Made by a program: the position numbers and the translations under genes. 64,000 nt of DNA, taken from assembly GCF_009914755.1 (NCBI RefSeq), contig NC_060945.1; one strand, 5' to 3'. The DNA comes from the human T2T-CHM13v2.0 reference genome, Homo sapiens. Each line of letters opens with the position of its first letter. Position 1 is the first letter of the stretch. The notes beneath the pieces are model-generated. The model saw nothing but the letters and a program-made list of their open reading frames with translations, did no database searches and had not been told where the DNA came from. This document shows, piece after piece, positions 3,750 to 8,371 of the stretch.

Positions 3750-4162
3750 TCAGGGGGTCTCTGGGGTTGCGGTTTGGGGCCCGCTGCTTCCGCCCTTTGC
3801 CCCCAGGTGGGCCTGGCAGGGCTGCAGCACAGCTCTGTTGCTGATAGACAGGGTGGAGCACTTGGCGACCTTGCCCTGCAGCCCTGTCATTTTGAGTTCA
3901 GAGGTCAGATTTGAGTAATAAACATCTTCTAAGGACTTGTCATTCTTTCTGAGGATGTTGCTGGCCAGCCGGAAGACGAAAATCACCGCGTAGATGCCGA
4001 TGATGGTGAGTATATACCAGGCAGCGCTGGTTCCGTCTGGCACCTTCAGAGCCCTGGTGGAGTTGGTGTCATTCCTCCCCTCTGTGTGGTCACCCAGCAG
4101 GAGCCCCAGGAGGGTGCTGGCCTGGGTCTGGTTGGAGGCTTCATGGGGAGTCCACTTGGCCC
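3750..4162 (-). CDS. SMIM34: SMIM34 coding exon 2 (residues 3-139), single-pass membrane protein with KCNE-like architecture
   Basis: The acceptor ctctctgtttctcag|GG is at 4162 and the frame is open to TGA at 3750-3752. With exon 1 the CDS is 420 nt (139 aa): MEWAKWTPHEASNQTQASTLLGLLLGDHTEGRNDTNSTRALKVPDGTSAAWYILTIIGIYAVIFVFRLASNILRKNDKSLEDVYYSNL...TPETP. This matches my recollection of SMIM34(A). Confidence 0.88.
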
Positions 4163-4357
4163 CTGAGAAACAGAGAGGTCCGGATGAGATCCAGCGTCCT
4201 GGGCTGAGGGCTGCCTGGCCACACCAAGGAGAATGGAGCCCTCATATCCGTGAAAACGTGTCGCTGCTCAAAGAGGCCTTCTCTGAGGCATGAGCAGGAG
4301 TGTAACAACAGGTATGTCAATATATTTTTAAAAATCAAAAGAGTCCAAAACACTATT

Positions 4358-4680
4358 TTGTTGTTGTTTTGTTTTGTTTTTTGTTTTGTTTGTTTTAGAG
4401 AGACAGAGTCTCTGTCACCCAGGCTGGAGTGCAGTGGCATGATCATAACTTACTACAGCCTCAACCTCCTGGGCTCAATTGATCCTCCTGCCTCAGCCTC
4501 ACAAATAGACATGCAGCACCATGCCGGGCTAATTTTTTTCTTTTTTCTCTCTCTTTTTTTTTTTGTAGAGATAGGGTCTTGCCATGTTGACCAGGCTGGT
4601 TTTGAATTCCTGGTCTCAAGAGCTCCTCTCACCTTAGCCTCCCAAGCCCTGGGATTACAGGCAGGAGCCACTGTGCCCAG
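4358..4680 (-). mobile_element. AluJ-like
   Basis: Reverse-complement Alu dimer with a T-rich tail. Confidence 0.9.
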
Positions 4681-4832
4681 AAAAACACTAAGTTCTTGAA
4701 TAGGAGACACAACATCATAAAGATGTCAGTTATCCCTCAAATAATTTATACAACAAACATAATTGCAATAAAAACAGCAATAGGATTTCTTTGTGAAATC
4801 AATAAACTATTCATTTAGAAAAATCAACTGTT

Positions 4833-5140
4833 GGCCGGGCATGGTGTCTCATGCCTGTAATCCCAGCACTTTGGGAGGCTAAGGTGGGAAGATTGCTTGA
4901 GCCCAGGAGGTTGAGACCAGCCTGGCCAACATGACAAGACCCTGTCTCTACAAGAAATAAAAAAACTAGCCAGGTGTGGTGTGCAAGCCTATGGTCCTAA
5001 CTACTCAGGAGGCTGAGGCCGGAGGATCACTTGAGCCCAGGAGGTTGAGGCTGCAGTGAGCTGTGTTCACACCACTGCATTCCAGCATGGGACCCTATTT
5101 AAAAAAAACAAAAAAAGAAAGAAAGAAAAAGAAAAAGAAA
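4833..5140 (+). mobile_element. AluJ-like
   Basis: ggccgggcatggtg...tcccagcactttgggagg... followed by an A-rich tail. Confidence 0.9.
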
Positions 5141-5373
5141 AATCAACTGTCAAGACTAATTAGAAAAAAAAATCTGAATAAAAAGAATGACTAATGAATT
5201 AGCCTAGCCACAAATTTTAAATCAGCCAGCTATAAAAACTAATTTACATTTTTTTCAATGAATGAAAGCTTTATATGCACAAAGCCCAGCTGGGACTTGC
5301 TGGGCTTTGCAGAGTGTGTGGGCTGGGGGTTCTTCAGAACCAGGTACAACTCTCCCTATAAAACTACAACAGT

Positions 5374-5875
5374 GCTGGGCATGGTGGCTCACACCTGTAA
5401 TCCCAGCACTTTGGGAGGCTGAGGCAGGTGGATCACCTGAGGTCAGGAGTTCGAGACCAGCCCTGCCAAAATGGAGAAACCCCGTCTTTACTAAAAATAC
5501 AAAAATTAACCAGGCGTGGTGGCACACACCTGTAGTTCCAGCTACTAGGGAGGCTGAGGCAGGAGAATCGCTTGAGTCCAGGAGGTGGAGGTTGCAGTGA
5601 GCCAAGTGATGCCTGTAGTTCCAGCAAGACAGAGCAAGACTCTATCTTAAAAAGTAAAAAAATAAAAAATAAAACTACAACAGCTAAAATAGTGTGATGC
5701 CTGTAGTTCCAGCTACTAGGGAGGCCGAGGCAGGAGAATCGCTTGAGTCCAGGAGGTGGAGGTTGCAGTGAGCCAAGATCGGGCCACTGCACTCCAGCCT
5801 GGGTGACAGAGCAAGACTCTGTCTTAAAAAATAAAAAAAATAAAAAATAAAACTACAACAGCTAAAATAGTGTGG
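5374..5875 (+). mobile_element. AluS with a tandemly duplicated right arm, tail and flank
   Basis: The TSD aaaactacaacag is at ~5360, 5671 and 5849, and the right arm is present twice. Confidence 0.9.
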
Positions 5876-7270
5876 TGCTGAAAACACAGGCAAGCAGACC
5901 AATGAAACAGAGTAAAAACAGCATCAATAGTTAGCAATTAGAATTTGATAGCTAGCTAATAAAGGAGCATTTCTGATCGGTGGGAAAAGATGAATTATTC
6001 AATATGTAGCATTGGGGGAAATAGCATTAGATCCACATCTCTCCACCATATGACCAGATAAATCGGTCCAGATTAAAAAAAAAACAGCCCAGATAAATCA
6101 AATATTTTAACATAAAAAGTGAAATAATTTATAGTACTAGAGTACAGCATGGCAGATTTTTTCTTTATCATCTCAGAGTGGAATATTCTTTTAAGCATAA
6201 CAAAAATTCAGAAGAAACAAGAAATAGAAATCAAATTCAACTACATAAAAAAAATTAAGCTATTTCATACCATAAAACCAACAGGCAGATGACAAAGTGC
6301 AATTTATATCACTGATTTTCTAAATAGCCTTCGGTTCTGTAAGAAAAAGTTTAAAACTGCAGTAGAAAAATGTGCAAAAGATATGGACAAATAGTTCACA
6401 GGGAAAAAATGAACATTCAACATAAGAAGAGCTTCTCAATATCACTCATATAAGAAAAATGCAAATTAAGATAATAACTAGATACCATTTTGTTACCTAT
6501 TGGACTTGCAAATTCATGATGTTTCAGAATAAACTAACAAAAAAATGGCTTTTTTTTGTTCTTTTGTCCAGCTTAGAAGAAAGGTGTCTAAATTGGGAGC
6601 AAAGGTGGCAATGACGTGGACTTGACACCAAAAAAAATTTTTTTTAAAGAAAAGAAACAAGTGCCTCTGCATTTCAGGGGTTTAGGATTGGCATTTTTAA
6701 AATGTCAACAAATAAATGTTCATATCCACACTTGACATTTTTTCCAAGGAGAATTTTAATTGTATAATTGCTGGTAAATTCATGCAGCCAACATGGAGGG
6801 CACACGGACAAGATCTATGAGCATTACAAGTGCACTTACCTTTGACCCAGCAATTCTATCTCTAGGAATCTATCCTAAAGATGCTCCAGAACATCTAGAG
6901 ACAACATATGCTGAAGGTTAGTCATTGCAGTCCTCCTTGTGATGACGAATGCCTGGGAACAGCCTGAATAGCACCAACTGAGGGATGGTGAAATACATTT
7001 TGGAACCTCCATGCAGTGGAGTACTACACAGTCATAAAAAGCAATGAGTTTTTTATGGTACTGAATGTTAATAAGTGAAAAAATAAGCTAATGGTGACAT
7101 GCTCTGCAATGCCACTTGTAAAGAAGGGGGAAGTTATATGTTATTTGCTTGTACTTTTTTTATGTATAGAACATCTCTGGAAGAATGAATAAGAAATTAG
7201 TATCTGCAATTGCCTCTGGGGAAGAAACCTGGGGGAAGAAGATATATTTTTTACTGTTTGCCCTTTTGTA
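5876..7270 (+). mobile_element. Ancient L1M ORF2/3' fragments
   Basis: Degenerate L1 motifs (aaatgcaaattaag, tttgacccagcaattct, aggaatctatcctaaag). Confidence 0.6.
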
Positions 7271-8364
7271 CACTTAGTACCGTGTATACTTATTTTTGAA
7301 AAGCAAGAGTGTACCAGTTGGTACTTTTCTGGTCTCCCTGGTGAGGTGCCCCTGGGTAAAGCCGTTGTATGCCCTTGTAAGACCAGAAGATTAAGATCTC
7401 AATTGCTGTTCAATTCAAAACTGTTTTCTCTGCTTGGAGAGCTGGTGGAGAAAATGAAACAATGAGAACCAGAGCTGTAGAGTGCAATCCTGTGAGACAT
7501 TTCCCAGTGGGGCCTTACTGGCTCAAACCCCCATTTCTTGCTCTAATGTGAACACAGATGTATTTAAAAACACATCATAGGATCAATCTTGCAGCCTGCT
7601 GTGCAGAACAAAGGTGCTCCAAAATGCTTCCCATTTGATCGTTGTTTGTTGCTAATTCATTTTGCGAACGCAAGACTCAGAGAGGCCAGTATTTTTTATT
7701 ATAGTTAGTTGCCAGAATGTGTGAATGAGCTTATTACTTTTAGATGAAGGAAGAAACTATTTAAAAATTACTTTTCAAACTACATGTGACAAAGCCCAGG
7801 ACAAATGAACAGATTTAATTACATAAAATTAGTCACTCGCAAGAAACAACACCACAAGCATAAATTTACACCATTGTTTGGTAGAATGGTTTGAGACATT
7901 AAAGTAAGGAAGGTGAAAAATTCCCGTAATTATTGCAACAAACAAACAGACAGCAAATCAACCCAACAAGAACACAATATCCTTATATTAGGGCAAGAGA
8001 ACTTATTGAAACTCAGAACACATGTATAAACTCATAGAACTTTCTAGAAATTGTCATAGAATGATGCAACACATTCAAATACAAATAAAATATCCCCAAC
8101 TAAGAGCTACACACAGAACATTAAATTATTTAAAAACCAGTCCATTTTCTACACGAAAGAAACTCACTATATTAATTACTGCAATACATTACATTTTACC
8201 TTTCTTACAAAGGTAAAAGTAAGTTAGGTTGTATCTTAATGGACAAACATATCCTGTAGAAGAGAGAAACTTTTTCCTCTGTGCTATTTTGTACTTGTAA
8301 TTTAATGACGTGAAATATGTAAAATCTCAACCTGCCCATCCTTGCATTGTAGCTGAGTACTCAC

Positions 8365-8371
8365 ATTCCAT
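8365..8371 (-). CDS. SMIM34: SMIM34 coding exon 1 (ATG GAA T), 3' end of the first exon
   Basis: The minus strand reads ccacccc ATGGAAT|gtgagt, a consensus donor. The phase-1 junction T+GG makes Trp and is in frame with the 4162 acceptor. Confidence 0.82.

What the first reader, a model, noticed from the sequence alone, without database searches (positions are those of the whole stretch)
3750..8371. SMIM34 looks like an unrecognised, divergent KCNE-family K+ channel beta-subunit beside KCNE1
Seen in sequence: both proteins are encoded in this window and align without gaps at a +6 offset. KCNE1 39-78 [40 protein letters not shown] pairs with SMIM34 45-84 DGTSAAWYILTIIGIYAVIFVFRLASNILRKNDKSLEDVY. 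Identities are at KCNE1 D39, G40, A44, Y46, L48, G52, S64, I66, K69 and D76 (10 of 40), with conservative pairs V/I, L/I, F/Y, G/A and M/L. The N-termini also correspond: [16 protein letters not shown] vs SNQT-QASTLLGLLLGD, an N-glycosylation sequon followed by a helix-like Leu segment. A second sequon cluster follows (N26 vs N33/N36). Both are 129-139 aa, have one TM segment and no signal peptide, are encoded almost entirely in the last exon, and lie on the same strand 30 kb apart. Established knowledge: this is the KCNE/ISK topology, D76 is the conserved LQT5 residue, and KCNE2 lies just beyond the left edge of the window. From memory, KCNE2 begins ..SNFTQ.. and the KCNE3/4/5 TM segments begin YIL, both matching SMIM34 (SNQTQ; WYIL). 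Inference: SMIM34 arose by tandem duplication in the KCNE2-KCNE1 cluster and may modulate KCNQ1 or other Kv channels. Caveats: TM-rich alignments give chance similarity, and I cannot tell whether it relates to the KCNE6 reported from lower vertebrates.
Basis: partly seen in the sequence, partly recalled or inferred. Interest (0 to 1): 0.9.

Follow-up and report, generated by a model that had tools for sequence, protein, structure and literature searches.

The report
SMIM34: probable divergent KCNE-family relative
SMIM34, an unstudied small membrane protein gene lying between the heart potassium-channel helper genes KCNE2 and KCNE1, looks like a strongly diverged relative of those helpers, and whether it still regulates a channel is open to direct testing.

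Summary
SMIM34 (139 aa) and KCNE1 (129 aa) are both in the window on the minus strand. The ungapped +6 alignment has exactly 10 of 40 identities.

The likeness is weak but exceeds chance.
True KCNE paralog pairs score 17-83.
- None of 150 and none of 100 architecture-preserving shuffles reach that score.
- KCNE is the top family in Pfam-wide and PDB-wide searches, but always below threshold.
- The other single-pass neighbour, SMIM11, shows nothing.

The signal sits mainly in the membrane helix. The ectodomain adds a little. The cytoplasmic part, including the D76/D82 pair, adds nothing measurable.

Human SMIM34 alone misses PF02060, and genome-wide profile scans do not list it. The family-invariant S68 and the KCNQ1 contact residue Y65 are not kept.

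SMIM34 is not KCNE6, which lies near PAX3. No paper I could search links SMIM34 to KCNE.

Verdict: SMIM34 is probably a diverged KCNE-derived paralogue, conserved across therian mammals. Channel modulation is untested.

The parts
8365..8483 (-). SMIM34 exon 1. Its last 7 bases (8365-8371) are the start codon, codon 2 and the first base of codon 3. A GT donor follows.
   Evidence: RefSeq annotation given with the finding; sequence read.
3750..4162 (-). SMIM34 main coding part (residues 3-139 plus stop) in the last exon. An AG acceptor lies just upstream.
   Evidence: The profile of 49 orthologs matches this exon at 240 bits and nothing else credible in the genome.
4125..4133 (-). First N-glycosylation sequon, N13-Q-T, 39 residues before the conserved Tyr. 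KCNE1's N5 sequon lies 41 residues before its Tyr.
   Evidence: The sequon is kept in 70 of 91 orthologs that have a residue there.
4095..4127 (-). Leu-rich segment predicted helical (residues 15-25). Profile alignment places it on the KCNE1 segment after its first sequon.
   Evidence: AF2 model helix at fragment residues 12-22, low confidence. hhalign register. Weak on its own, z 1.5.
4056..4073 (-). Second sequon cluster, N33-D-T and N36-S-T, 19 and 16 residues before the Tyr. KCNE1's N26 lies 20 residues before its Tyr.
   Evidence: Kept in 81 of 101 and 82 of 102 orthologs.
3951..4025 (-). Single hydrophobic membrane segment, A49-L73. It holds W51, Y52, I53, L54, G58 and Y60, with R67 embedded. 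This is the part that carries most of the KCNE likeness.
   Evidence: Helix-only hhalign score 21-22 against shuffles of mean about 10; 0 of 60 and 0 of 80 reach it. W51 in 102 of 102, Y52 in 101, G58 in 99. pLDDT 84-92 here.
3882..3950 (-). Very conserved cytoplasmic-side motif, R74-G96. It includes L80-E81-D82, Y84-Y85 and a fourth sequon, N87-L-T. It is specific to SMIM34 and not detectably KCNE-like.
   Evidence: Conservation. No signal against KCNE juxtamembrane or cytoplasmic profiles.
33801..34190 (-). KCNE1 coding sequence (129 aa plus stop), the comparison partner. One predicted transcript starts 9 bases further upstream.
   Evidence: PF02060 at 235.9 bits. Annotation table.

Best explanation
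SMIM34 is a real, conserved protein-coding gene. It is most likely a strongly diverged offshoot of the KCNE (MinK-related) family of single-pass channel helper subunits. It would have arisen by local duplication inside the KCNE2-KCNE1 cluster before marsupials and placental mammals split.

**What it keeps**
- The KCNE ground plan: no signal peptide.
- A short outside N-terminus with two sequon positions and a Leu-rich helix.
- One membrane helix with the family's Tyr and Gly pattern.
- Basic residues after the helix, and a tail of about the same length.

**What it has replaced**
- The KCNE cytoplasmic contact region is replaced by a motif of its own, almost invariant across orthologs.

**Inferred, not shown**
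- It works as KCNEs do, by lodging its membrane helix against a multi-pass partner and tuning that partner's trafficking or gating.
- A voltage-gated K+ channel is the first candidate partner. The loss of S68, Y65 and W87 means the partner, or the effect on it, probably differs from KCNE1 with KCNQ1.
For: **Profile-profile comparison**
- hhalign of 49 SMIM34 sequences against human KCNE1-5: probability 83%, P 9.1e-6, 85 columns.
- 102 SMIM34 sequences against 55 KCNE1 sequences: score 39.0, P 4.6e-6, 109 columns. Against 125 KCNE sequences: score 39.6, P 3.5e-6.
- Against a balanced 41-sequence KCNE set: score 41.4.
- Register is the same in every run.
- Bona fide KCNE paralog pairs score 16.9-83.0 with the same tool.

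**Nulls**
- Shuffling within ectodomain, helix and cytoplasmic blocks gives mean 16.4, SD 4.0, maximum 28.1; 0 of 150 reach the observed score.
- The second such null gives mean 16.5, SD 3.3, maximum 27.0; 0 of 100.
- A Gumbel fit to those numbers (my own arithmetic) gives about 4e-4 and 7e-5.
- With HMMER and a KCNE HMM, 103 real SMIM34 sequences score a median of 14.9 bits (range 8.1-27.4). Block-shuffled decoys have a 99th percentile of 5.0 and a maximum of 10.4 (n=932). Reversed sequences reach at most 7.3 bits.

**Library-wide controls with real proteins**
- PF02060 is the family hit by most orthologs, 13 of 49, with best E 0.0011 among 24,736 Pfam families.
- PF02060 is the top family for 8 of the 10 orthologs sent. 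The matches run collinear over about 90 residues.
- KCNE1 chains are the top 3 of 4 hits among 177,635 PDB sequences, E 0.05-0.12.
- Atlas rank 2 is an ISK_Channel cluster, and 13% of the SMIM34A cluster carries PF02060.

**Layout and neighbourhood**
- Neighbour control: SMIM11 scores 17.3 in hhalign and 0.7 bits in HMMER. Human SMIM34 alone scores 36.6 and 19.6 bits.
- Sequons lie at -39 and -19/-16 from the Tyr, with 87 residues after it. KCNE1 has -41 and -20, with 83 residues after.
- Gene order is KCNE2, SMIM11, C21orf140, SMIM34, KCNE1.

**Constraint**
- The helix and adjoining motif are near-invariant in 102 therian orthologs.
Against: - Human SMIM34 alone gives no PF02060 hit at E<=10.
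- No ortholog I saw reaches the Pfam cut-off. The 10 sent gave 13.2-17.1 bits against a cut-off of 22.1. For the best of the 49 (E 0.0011) no bit score was shown.
- Genome-wide scans with PF02060 and with a KCNE profile list KCNE1-5 but not SMIM34. Noise ORFs reach 17-22 bits there.
- The SMIM34 profile finds no KCNE exon genome-wide.
- The signal is mostly in the membrane helix, where hhalign P-values are inflated. Reversed KCNE1 still scores 28.9.
- The ectodomain alone is marginal, and the cytoplasmic part shows nothing.
- S68, invariant in all 41 KCNE sequences aligned, is R74 in SMIM34.
- A conserved sequon on the C-terminal side, N87 in 91 of 102 orthologs, leaves the topology not fully settled.
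- Orthologs are not independent, so the many concordant hits count as roughly one observation.
- No non-therian ortholog or intermediate sequence was found.
- There are no functional data at all.
Confidence: 0.72

Rival explanations
1. Chance or convergent resemblance. SMIM34 is an unrelated small single-pass glycoprotein whose helix and sequons merely look like KCNE1's. Its place between KCNE2 and KCNE1 is a coincidence.
For: - The signal is dominated by the membrane helix.
- Every library-wide hit is below threshold.
- Human SMIM34 misses PF02060 and is absent from genome-wide profile hits.
- A spurious low-complexity ORF on chr8 reaches 22.1 bits on PF02060.
- Reversed KCNE1 scores 28.9 in hhalign.
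- S68 is not kept.
Against: - 0 of 250 architecture-preserving shuffles reach the observed score.
- KCNE comes out top among 24,736 Pfam families and 177,635 PDB sequences, and it is also the family of both flanking channel-subunit genes. Those two facts are independent.
- The alignment is collinear over 80-109 columns, with matching sequon spacing and tail length.
- The other single-pass neighbour, SMIM11, shows no such signal.
Confidence: 0.22
2. SMIM34 is KCNE-derived but no longer a K+ channel subunit. After duplication it acquired a new cytoplasmic motif and now serves another partner or a trafficking role.
For: - The cytoplasmic region shows no KCNE likeness, yet is the most conserved part of SMIM34.
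- S68, Y65 and W87 are sites the KCNE1 mutational scan reports as KCNQ1 or calmodulin contacts or as functionally constrained. They are not kept.
- The residues at the positions that align with KCNE1 57-59 also differ.
Against: - The membrane helix, which carries much of KCNE's channel contact, is the part that is kept.
- KCNE paralogs themselves differ widely in their tails.
- No data point to any other partner.
Confidence: 0.35
3. SMIM34 is the mammalian counterpart of the KCNE6 gene described in 2024.
Against: - The KCNE6 paper places the kcne6 ORF near pax3 'in most cases' and calls it a 29-aa remnant in humans. PAX3 and KCNE4 are on chr2, whereas SMIM34 is on chr21 and intact.
- That paper does not contain the string SMIM.
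Confidence: 0.01
4. SMIM34 is not a functional protein. It would be a transcribed ORF annotated by prediction only.
For: [quoted passage not shown]
- No protein-level evidence was seen here.
Against: - An intact ORF is found in 102 therian records, including 7 marsupials.
- The 25-residue helix and the 23-residue motif after it are near-invariant, while the tail varies.
Confidence: 0.04

Closest known systems
KCNE1 (MinK, IsK), the adjacent gene; Pfam PF02060 ISK_Channel
   Same: - Same strand, 29.6 kb away, with similar size (129 vs 139 aa).
- No hydrophobic N-terminal signal sequence, and one membrane helix.
- Sequons at -41/-20 vs -39/-19 from the shared Tyr, and 83 vs 87 residues after it.
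- Best hhalign partner: score 39.0 over 109 columns.
- Shared residues are A44, Y46, L48, G52, S64, I66, K69 and D76 in KCNE1 numbering.
   Different: - Below the Pfam cut-off.
- S68, Y65 and W87 are not kept. R67 sits inside the SMIM34 helix. The cytoplasmic region is not detectably related.
- The start codon lies in a separate upstream exon.
KCNE2 (MiRP1), 45 kb to the left of the window
   Same: - Same cluster.
- The N-terminus reads SNFTQ against SNQTQ in SMIM34.
- The tree groups SMIM34 with KCNE2 at 98/93 support.
   Different: - The hhalign score is only 22-26.
- The AU test does not reject placing SMIM34 with KCNE1 (p 0.22) or with KCNE3/4/5 (p 0.24).
- KCNE2 is on the opposite strand.
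KCNE6 (Kasuya et al. 2024, PMC11659587)
   Same: Both are late-recognised KCNE-like genes that were missed because they are small and divergent.
   Different: - KCNE6 lies near PAX3, is most similar to KCNE3, modulates KCNQ1 in species up to marsupials, and is reported to be a pseudogene in placental mammals, 29 aa in humans.
- SMIM34 is on chr21, is intact in humans, and was found only in therians.
SMIM11, the other small single-pass gene in the cluster
   Same: It is a small single-pass protein between KCNE2 and KCNE1, and its start codon also lies in a short separate exon part.
   Different: No likeness to KCNE (hhalign 17.3, 0.7 bits) or to SMIM34 (hhalign 8.6).

Membership tests
KCNE family (Pfam PF02060 ISK_Channel) | Match to PF02060 at or above the curated cut-off (22.1 bits) | tested here: not met
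   - Human SMIM34 has no hit at E<=10.
- 13 of 49 orthologs hit below the cut-off, best E 0.0011.
- 8 of 10 orthologs sent gave 13.2-17.1 bits.
- The Atlas reports PF02060 on 13% of its SMIM34A cluster. I could not see those records.
KCNE family | Profile-profile similarity to KCNE profiles beyond architecture-preserving nulls | tested here: met
   Scores are 39.0-41.4 in a constant register. None of 150 and none of 100 block shuffles reach them. The scores fall within the range of true paralog pairs.
KCNE family | Single membrane helix, no signal peptide, N-terminus outside and glycosylated | tested here: inconclusive
   - One hydrophobic helix, residues 49-73, with pLDDT 84-92.
- 93 of 99 orthologs have 2-4 sequons before the helix, at KCNE1-like spacing.
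- A further conserved sequon, N87, lies on the other side (91 of 102), and the flanking charges are balanced.
- No topology or signal-peptide predictor was available.
KCNE family | Family-invariant Tyr at the start of the helix (KCNE1 Y46) | tested here: met
   Y46 is invariant in 5 of 5 human and 41 of 41 aligned KCNE sequences. It aligns with SMIM34 Y52, present in 101 of 102 orthologs.
KCNE family | Family-invariant Ser after the helix (KCNE1 S68) within the basic R/K-S-K/R-K/R motif | tested here: not met
   S68 is invariant in 41 of 41 KCNE sequences. The aligned SMIM34 residue is R74 (R in 83 of 102). Basic residues are present but the Ser is not.
KCNE family | Juxtamembrane and cytoplasmic region related to KCNE (region of D76, F78, Y81, W87) | tested here: not met
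   D82 pairs with D76 and is conserved in 96 of 102 orthologs. The region shows no similarity above shuffles, z 0.0 and -0.7 to -1.4. W87 has no counterpart.
KCNE family | Binds and modulates voltage-gated K+ channel alpha subunits such as KCNQ1 | not testable with these tools
No experimental report was found.
KCNE family | Genomic linkage with other KCNE genes (supporting, not defining) | tested here: met
   SMIM34 lies between KCNE2 and KCNE1 on chr21. SMIM34 and KCNE records of the same species share contig lengths, including wombat and antechinus.
KCNE6 | Location next to PAX3 | tested here: not met
   SMIM34 is on chr21. PAX3 and KCNE4 are on chr2.

The most novel reading that the evidence does not exclude
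Humans carry an intact, therian-specific seventh KCNE-type subunit, SMIM34, inside the LQT5/LQT6 gene cluster. It assembles with KCNQ1 or another voltage-gated channel and changes its gating or surface expression. Some genetic signals at 21q22.12 now credited to KCNE1 or KCNE2 could then act through it.
Probability: 0.25. Interest if true: 0.85.

Novelty: new variant of a known kind. Interest (0 to 1): 0.6.

Why it matters
KCNE subunits set the behaviour of cardiac and epithelial K+ channels, and KCNE1 and KCNE2 are long-QT genes. The field still counts members: KCNE6 was named in 2024 and a lamprey KCNE0 in 2026.

An intact, conserved, unstudied relative sitting between KCNE2 and KCNE1 would:
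- add a candidate channel partner;
- give a natural experiment in which the KCNE membrane helix is kept and the cytoplasmic contact region is replaced;
- give a further gene to consider when interpreting variants and deletions at this locus.

The claim is cheap to test by co-expression electrophysiology.

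Tried and rejected
**Led nowhere or gave negative results**
1. Single-sequence tests are too weak. BLASTP of the two human proteins gives E 0.004 over 25 residues. Pfam gives no hit on human SMIM34.
2. Genome-wide six-frame scans do not connect SMIM34 with KCNE. I ran PF02060, the SMIM34 profile and a 41-sequence KCNE profile. At genome scale the signal is lost among noise ORFs of 17-22 bits.
3. The ectodomain alone in the Atlas gave no usable hit.
4. The whole-protein Atlas rank 1 is an unrelated hypothetical cluster at 0.90. 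The tool warns that shuffled proteins often reach 0.8-0.9, so I treat as a lead only.
5. The tree of 41 sequences over 111 columns puts SMIM34 with KCNE2 (98/93). The AU tests do not reject the alternatives (p 0.22 and 0.24). SMIM34 sits on a branch of 2.7 changes per column, and its C-terminal half was not aligned. I therefore do not name a donor gene.
6. The AF2 model has mean pLDDT 56.4, so I did not run a fold search on what is essentially one helix.
7. I rejected identity with KCNE6 and a relation of SMIM11 or C21orf140 to KCNE.
8. The profile search for non-therian orthologs found only therians: 102 proteins at E<=10 among 416 candidates. A further 5,728 candidates known from samples alone were left out by the tool.

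**Not done**
- dN/dS, because no ortholog coding DNA was available.
- Signal-peptide and topology prediction, because there is no such tool here.
- A real-family decoy set for hhalign. I used only shuffles, reversal, two neighbour genes, and the Pfam-wide and PDB-wide HMMER searches.

**Closed material**
Supplementary Fig. 5 of the KCNE6 paper (the loci surveyed) and the expression supplements of the papers mentioning SMIM34 could bear on location and expression. I did not see them.

**What I saw of each paper**
- PMC11659587: outline, abstract and passages.
- 10.64898/2026.04.28.721385: passages.
- 10.1101/2023.04.28.538612: passages.
- 10.1101/2024.12.25.630332, PMC12727312 and PMC7358007: one passage each.
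- PMC13289392: six passages.
- PMC13054283 and all other papers: search listings only.

Full report
**What is in the sequence.** SMIM34 is read from the minus strand. Seven coding bases sit at the end of exon 1 (window 8365-8371, followed by a GT donor). The rest is in the last exon (3750-4162, preceded by an AG acceptor). That gives 139 residues. KCNE1 is read from 33804-34190, also minus strand, giving 129 residues. One predicted transcript adds three residues upstream. The gene order on chr21 is KCNE2 (+), SMIM11 (+), C21orf140 (-), SMIM34 (-), KCNE1 (-), RCAN1 (-). KCNE2 ends about 45 kb left of the window.

**SMIM34 is a constrained protein.** A word-indexed search found 89 proteins at E<=0.01 among 90 candidates. 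A profile search found 102 at E<=10 among 416 candidates. All are therian mammals, including seven marsupial species. No monotreme or non-mammal appeared. The tool left out candidates known from samples alone and needs shared 5-residue words, so absence elsewhere is not shown. In 102 aligned orthologs, W51 is present in 102, Y52 in 101, I53 in 99, L54 in 101, G58 in 99, S70 in 97, I72 and L73 in 102, E81 in 100 and D82 in 96. The last 40 or so residues vary freely. This pattern fits a translated, functional membrane protein.

**Is the likeness to KCNE more than chance? Single sequences cannot tell.** BLASTP gives E 0.004 over 25 residues. Human SMIM34 has no PF02060 hit.

**Profiles do tell.**
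- hhalign of 49 SMIM34 orthologs against the five human KCNEs gives probability 83%, P 9.1e-6, over 85 columns.
- 102 orthologs against 55 KCNE1 sequences give score 39.0, P 4.6e-6, over 109 columns.
- 102 orthologs against all 125 KCNE sequences give score 39.6, P 3.5e-6.
- Against a balanced 41-sequence KCNE alignment the score is 41.4.
- As a yardstick, true KCNE paralog pairs run the same way score from 16.9 (KCNE2 with KCNE5) to 83.0 (KCNE1 with KCNE2).
- Scores against KCNE2, KCNE3, KCNE4 and KCNE5 alone are 16.5-28.6. My KCNE3, KCNE4 and KCNE5 sets held only 1, 3 and 10 sequences.

**Controls with shuffles.** hhalign P-values are too generous for membrane helices: KCNE1 read backwards still scores 28.9. 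I therefore permuted KCNE columns within the ectodomain, helix and cytoplasmic blocks. That keeps the architecture and composition.
- This gives mean 16.4, SD 4.0, maximum 28.1; 0 of 150 reach 39.0.
- For the all-KCNE profile it gives mean 16.5, SD 3.3, maximum 27.0; 0 of 100 reach 39.6.
- A Gumbel extrapolation from those figures (my arithmetic) puts the chance at about 4e-4 and 7e-5.
- With HMMER, a KCNE HMM scores 103 real SMIM34 sequences at a median of 14.9 bits (range 8.1-27.4).
- Block-shuffled decoys have a median of -1.2, a 99th percentile of 5.0 and a maximum of 10.4 (n=932). Reversed sequences reach at most 7.3.
- The orthologs share one ancestor, so this is in effect one observation measured many times.

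**Controls with real proteins.**
- Against all 24,736 Pfam families, PF02060 is the family matched by most orthologs, 13 of 49, with best E 0.0011.
- It is the top family for 8 of the 10 orthologs I sent, at 13.2-17.1 bits. The matches are collinear, for example protein 12-101 on profile 4-99 of 126.
- The SMIM34 profile against 177,635 PDB sequences returns four hits at E<=10. The top three are KCNE1 chains, E 0.05-0.12.
- The other single-pass protein of the cluster, SMIM11, scores 17.3 in hhalign and 0.7 bits in HMMER against KCNE. C21orf140 scores 13.3. Human SMIM34 alone scores 36.6 and 19.6 bits.
- The Atlas puts an ISK_Channel cluster at rank 2 (0.88). It reports PF02060 on 13% of its SMIM34A cluster. 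By the tool's own warning this is a lead only.

**Results against.**
- No SMIM34 sequence whose bit score I saw reaches the Pfam cut-off of 22.1 bits. For the best ortholog only the E-value was shown.
- Genome-wide six-frame scans with PF02060 and with my KCNE profile list KCNE1-5 but not SMIM34. Noise hits there reach 17.4-22.1 bits, among them a low-complexity ORF on chr8.
- The SMIM34 profile finds only itself, plus one noise hit, genome-wide.
- The ectodomain alone gave nothing in the Atlas.

**Where the signal lies.** I cut both profiles into blocks.
- The helix block alone scores 21.0-22.1 against shuffles of about 10 (z 4.6 and 5.3; 0 of 60 and 0 of 80 reach it).
- The ectodomain scores 12.8-13.3 in the right register (z 1.5; 6 of 60 and 5 of 80 shuffles do as well).
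- The juxtamembrane and cytoplasmic blocks score at or below the shuffles (z 0.0, -0.7 and -1.4).
- The pairing of the long-QT residue D76 with D82 is therefore real in the alignment and D82 is conserved. It carries no statistical weight of its own.

**Layout.** The layout still agrees closely. Counted from the shared Tyr, KCNE1 has sequons at -41 and -20 and 83 residues after it. SMIM34 has sequons at -39 and -19/-16 and 87 residues after it. These positions hold in most orthologs of both families. AF2 predicts a short helix between the two sequon sites and one long helix through the membrane, with high confidence only in the membrane part (mean pLDDT 56.4).

**What differs from KCNE.**
- Of the two residues invariant in 41 aligned KCNE sequences, Y46 is kept and S68 is not; the aligned SMIM34 residue is R74.
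- The KCNE1 mutational scan reports a function-critical stretch at 61-87. It names KCNQ1 contacts at M62, Y65 and S68, and constrained residues F78, Y81, I82 and W87 (passages seen).
- In SMIM34 these align with L68, N71 and R74. After a three-residue gap in the hhalign alignment, Y81 and I82 align with a Tyr-Tyr pair. W87 has no counterpart.
- SMIM34 has an Arg inside the helix (R67; R in 78, Q in 15 and L in 8 of 102).
- It has its own near-invariant motif after the helix, and a conserved sequon, N87, on that side (91 of 102). That sequon leaves a small doubt about topology.

**Origin.** The best hhalign partner is KCNE1. A maximum-likelihood tree on 111 columns groups SMIM34 with KCNE2 (98/93), on a branch of 2.7 changes per column. 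AU tests do not reject SMIM34 with KCNE1 (p 0.22) or with KCNE3/4/5 (p 0.24). I conclude only that it belongs with the family, and probably arose locally. I take this as linkage on one scaffold. The duplication would predate the marsupial-placental split.

**Comparison with what is known.**
- KCNE6 is a different gene. Its paper places the kcne6 ORF near pax3 'in most cases', reports a 29-residue remnant in humans, and nowhere contains the string SMIM.
- Eleven papers in the library mention SMIM34. Four of them also contain KCNE. I read one passage in each of two of those four, and both only list neighbouring genes. The other two I saw as search listings only.
- One further paper calls SMIM34 uncharacterised with little brain or vascular expression.
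- Searches for KCNE7 and LOC388820 found nothing. The other two phrases of that search ('KCNE-like protein', 'novel KCNE') matched only papers on known KCNE genes.
- The 2025 KCNE review and the 2026 lamprey preprint are not among the papers that hold SMIM34.
- From these searches I see no published link. Automatic domain annotation does touch it for a minority of orthologs.
- I recall, without being able to check, that some family databases may already group SMIM34 with KCNE.

**Verdict.** Descent from the KCNE family is the best explanation, at about 0.7. By Pfam's cut-off and by the invariant Ser it is not a canonical member. I therefore file it as a new variant of a known kind rather than as KCNE7. 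That it works like a KCNE, as a single-helix helper of a channel, is an inference from the conserved helix. Which channel, if any, is open.

Noticed in passing
window 40670-40797 (-): A full-length H/ACA snoRNA of family SNORA11 (99.3 bits against a gathering score of 36) lies inside a KCNE1 intron, on the gene's strand. It was the only Rfam match in the window.
   Followed up: partly
window 34191-34199 (-): An in-frame ATG three codons upstream of the canonical KCNE1 start is used by one predicted transcript (XM model). It gives a 132-aa form. All curated transcripts start at the canonical Met.
   Followed up: partly
outside the window: chr21 32761555-32767695 (L015): SMIM11, the other small single-pass gene of the cluster, also has its start codon in a short separate exon part (12 coding bases). 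It shows no likeness to KCNE or to SMIM34.
   Followed up: yes
whole genome G000: A table in an eLife paper lists second copies on the short arm of chromosome 21 in the older reference (SMIM11B, FAM243B, SMIM34B, KCNE1B). My scans of this T2T genome found one SMIM34 exon and one KCNE1 exon only. Matches in closed regions are not shown, so this is not proof of absence.
   Followed up: partly
P0007 (NCBI record labelled human): One public human-labelled SMIM34A record is identical to the window's protein up to the variable C-terminal tail and differs after that. I drew no inference from it and did not pursue it.
   Followed up: no
G000:C8:138169435-138169542 (L005): An unannotated 49-aa low-complexity ORF (a run of Val, Phe and Leu) reaches the PF02060 cut-off, 22.1 bits, in the six-frame genome scan. 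It shows how easily hydrophobic runs score on this model.
   Followed up: partly
window 5529-5878: Two tandem copies of a 171-base unit, 87% alike, lie in the SMIM34 intron. The unit looks Alu-like by eye, and I did not check this.
   Followed up: no
window 3898-3906 (-), SMIM34 N87-L-T: An N-glycosylation sequon is kept in 91 of 102 orthologs on the presumed cytoplasmic side, inside a Tyr-Tyr-Ser-Asn-Leu stretch. Either it is conserved for another reason, such as a sorting signal, or the topology needs checking.
   Followed up: partly
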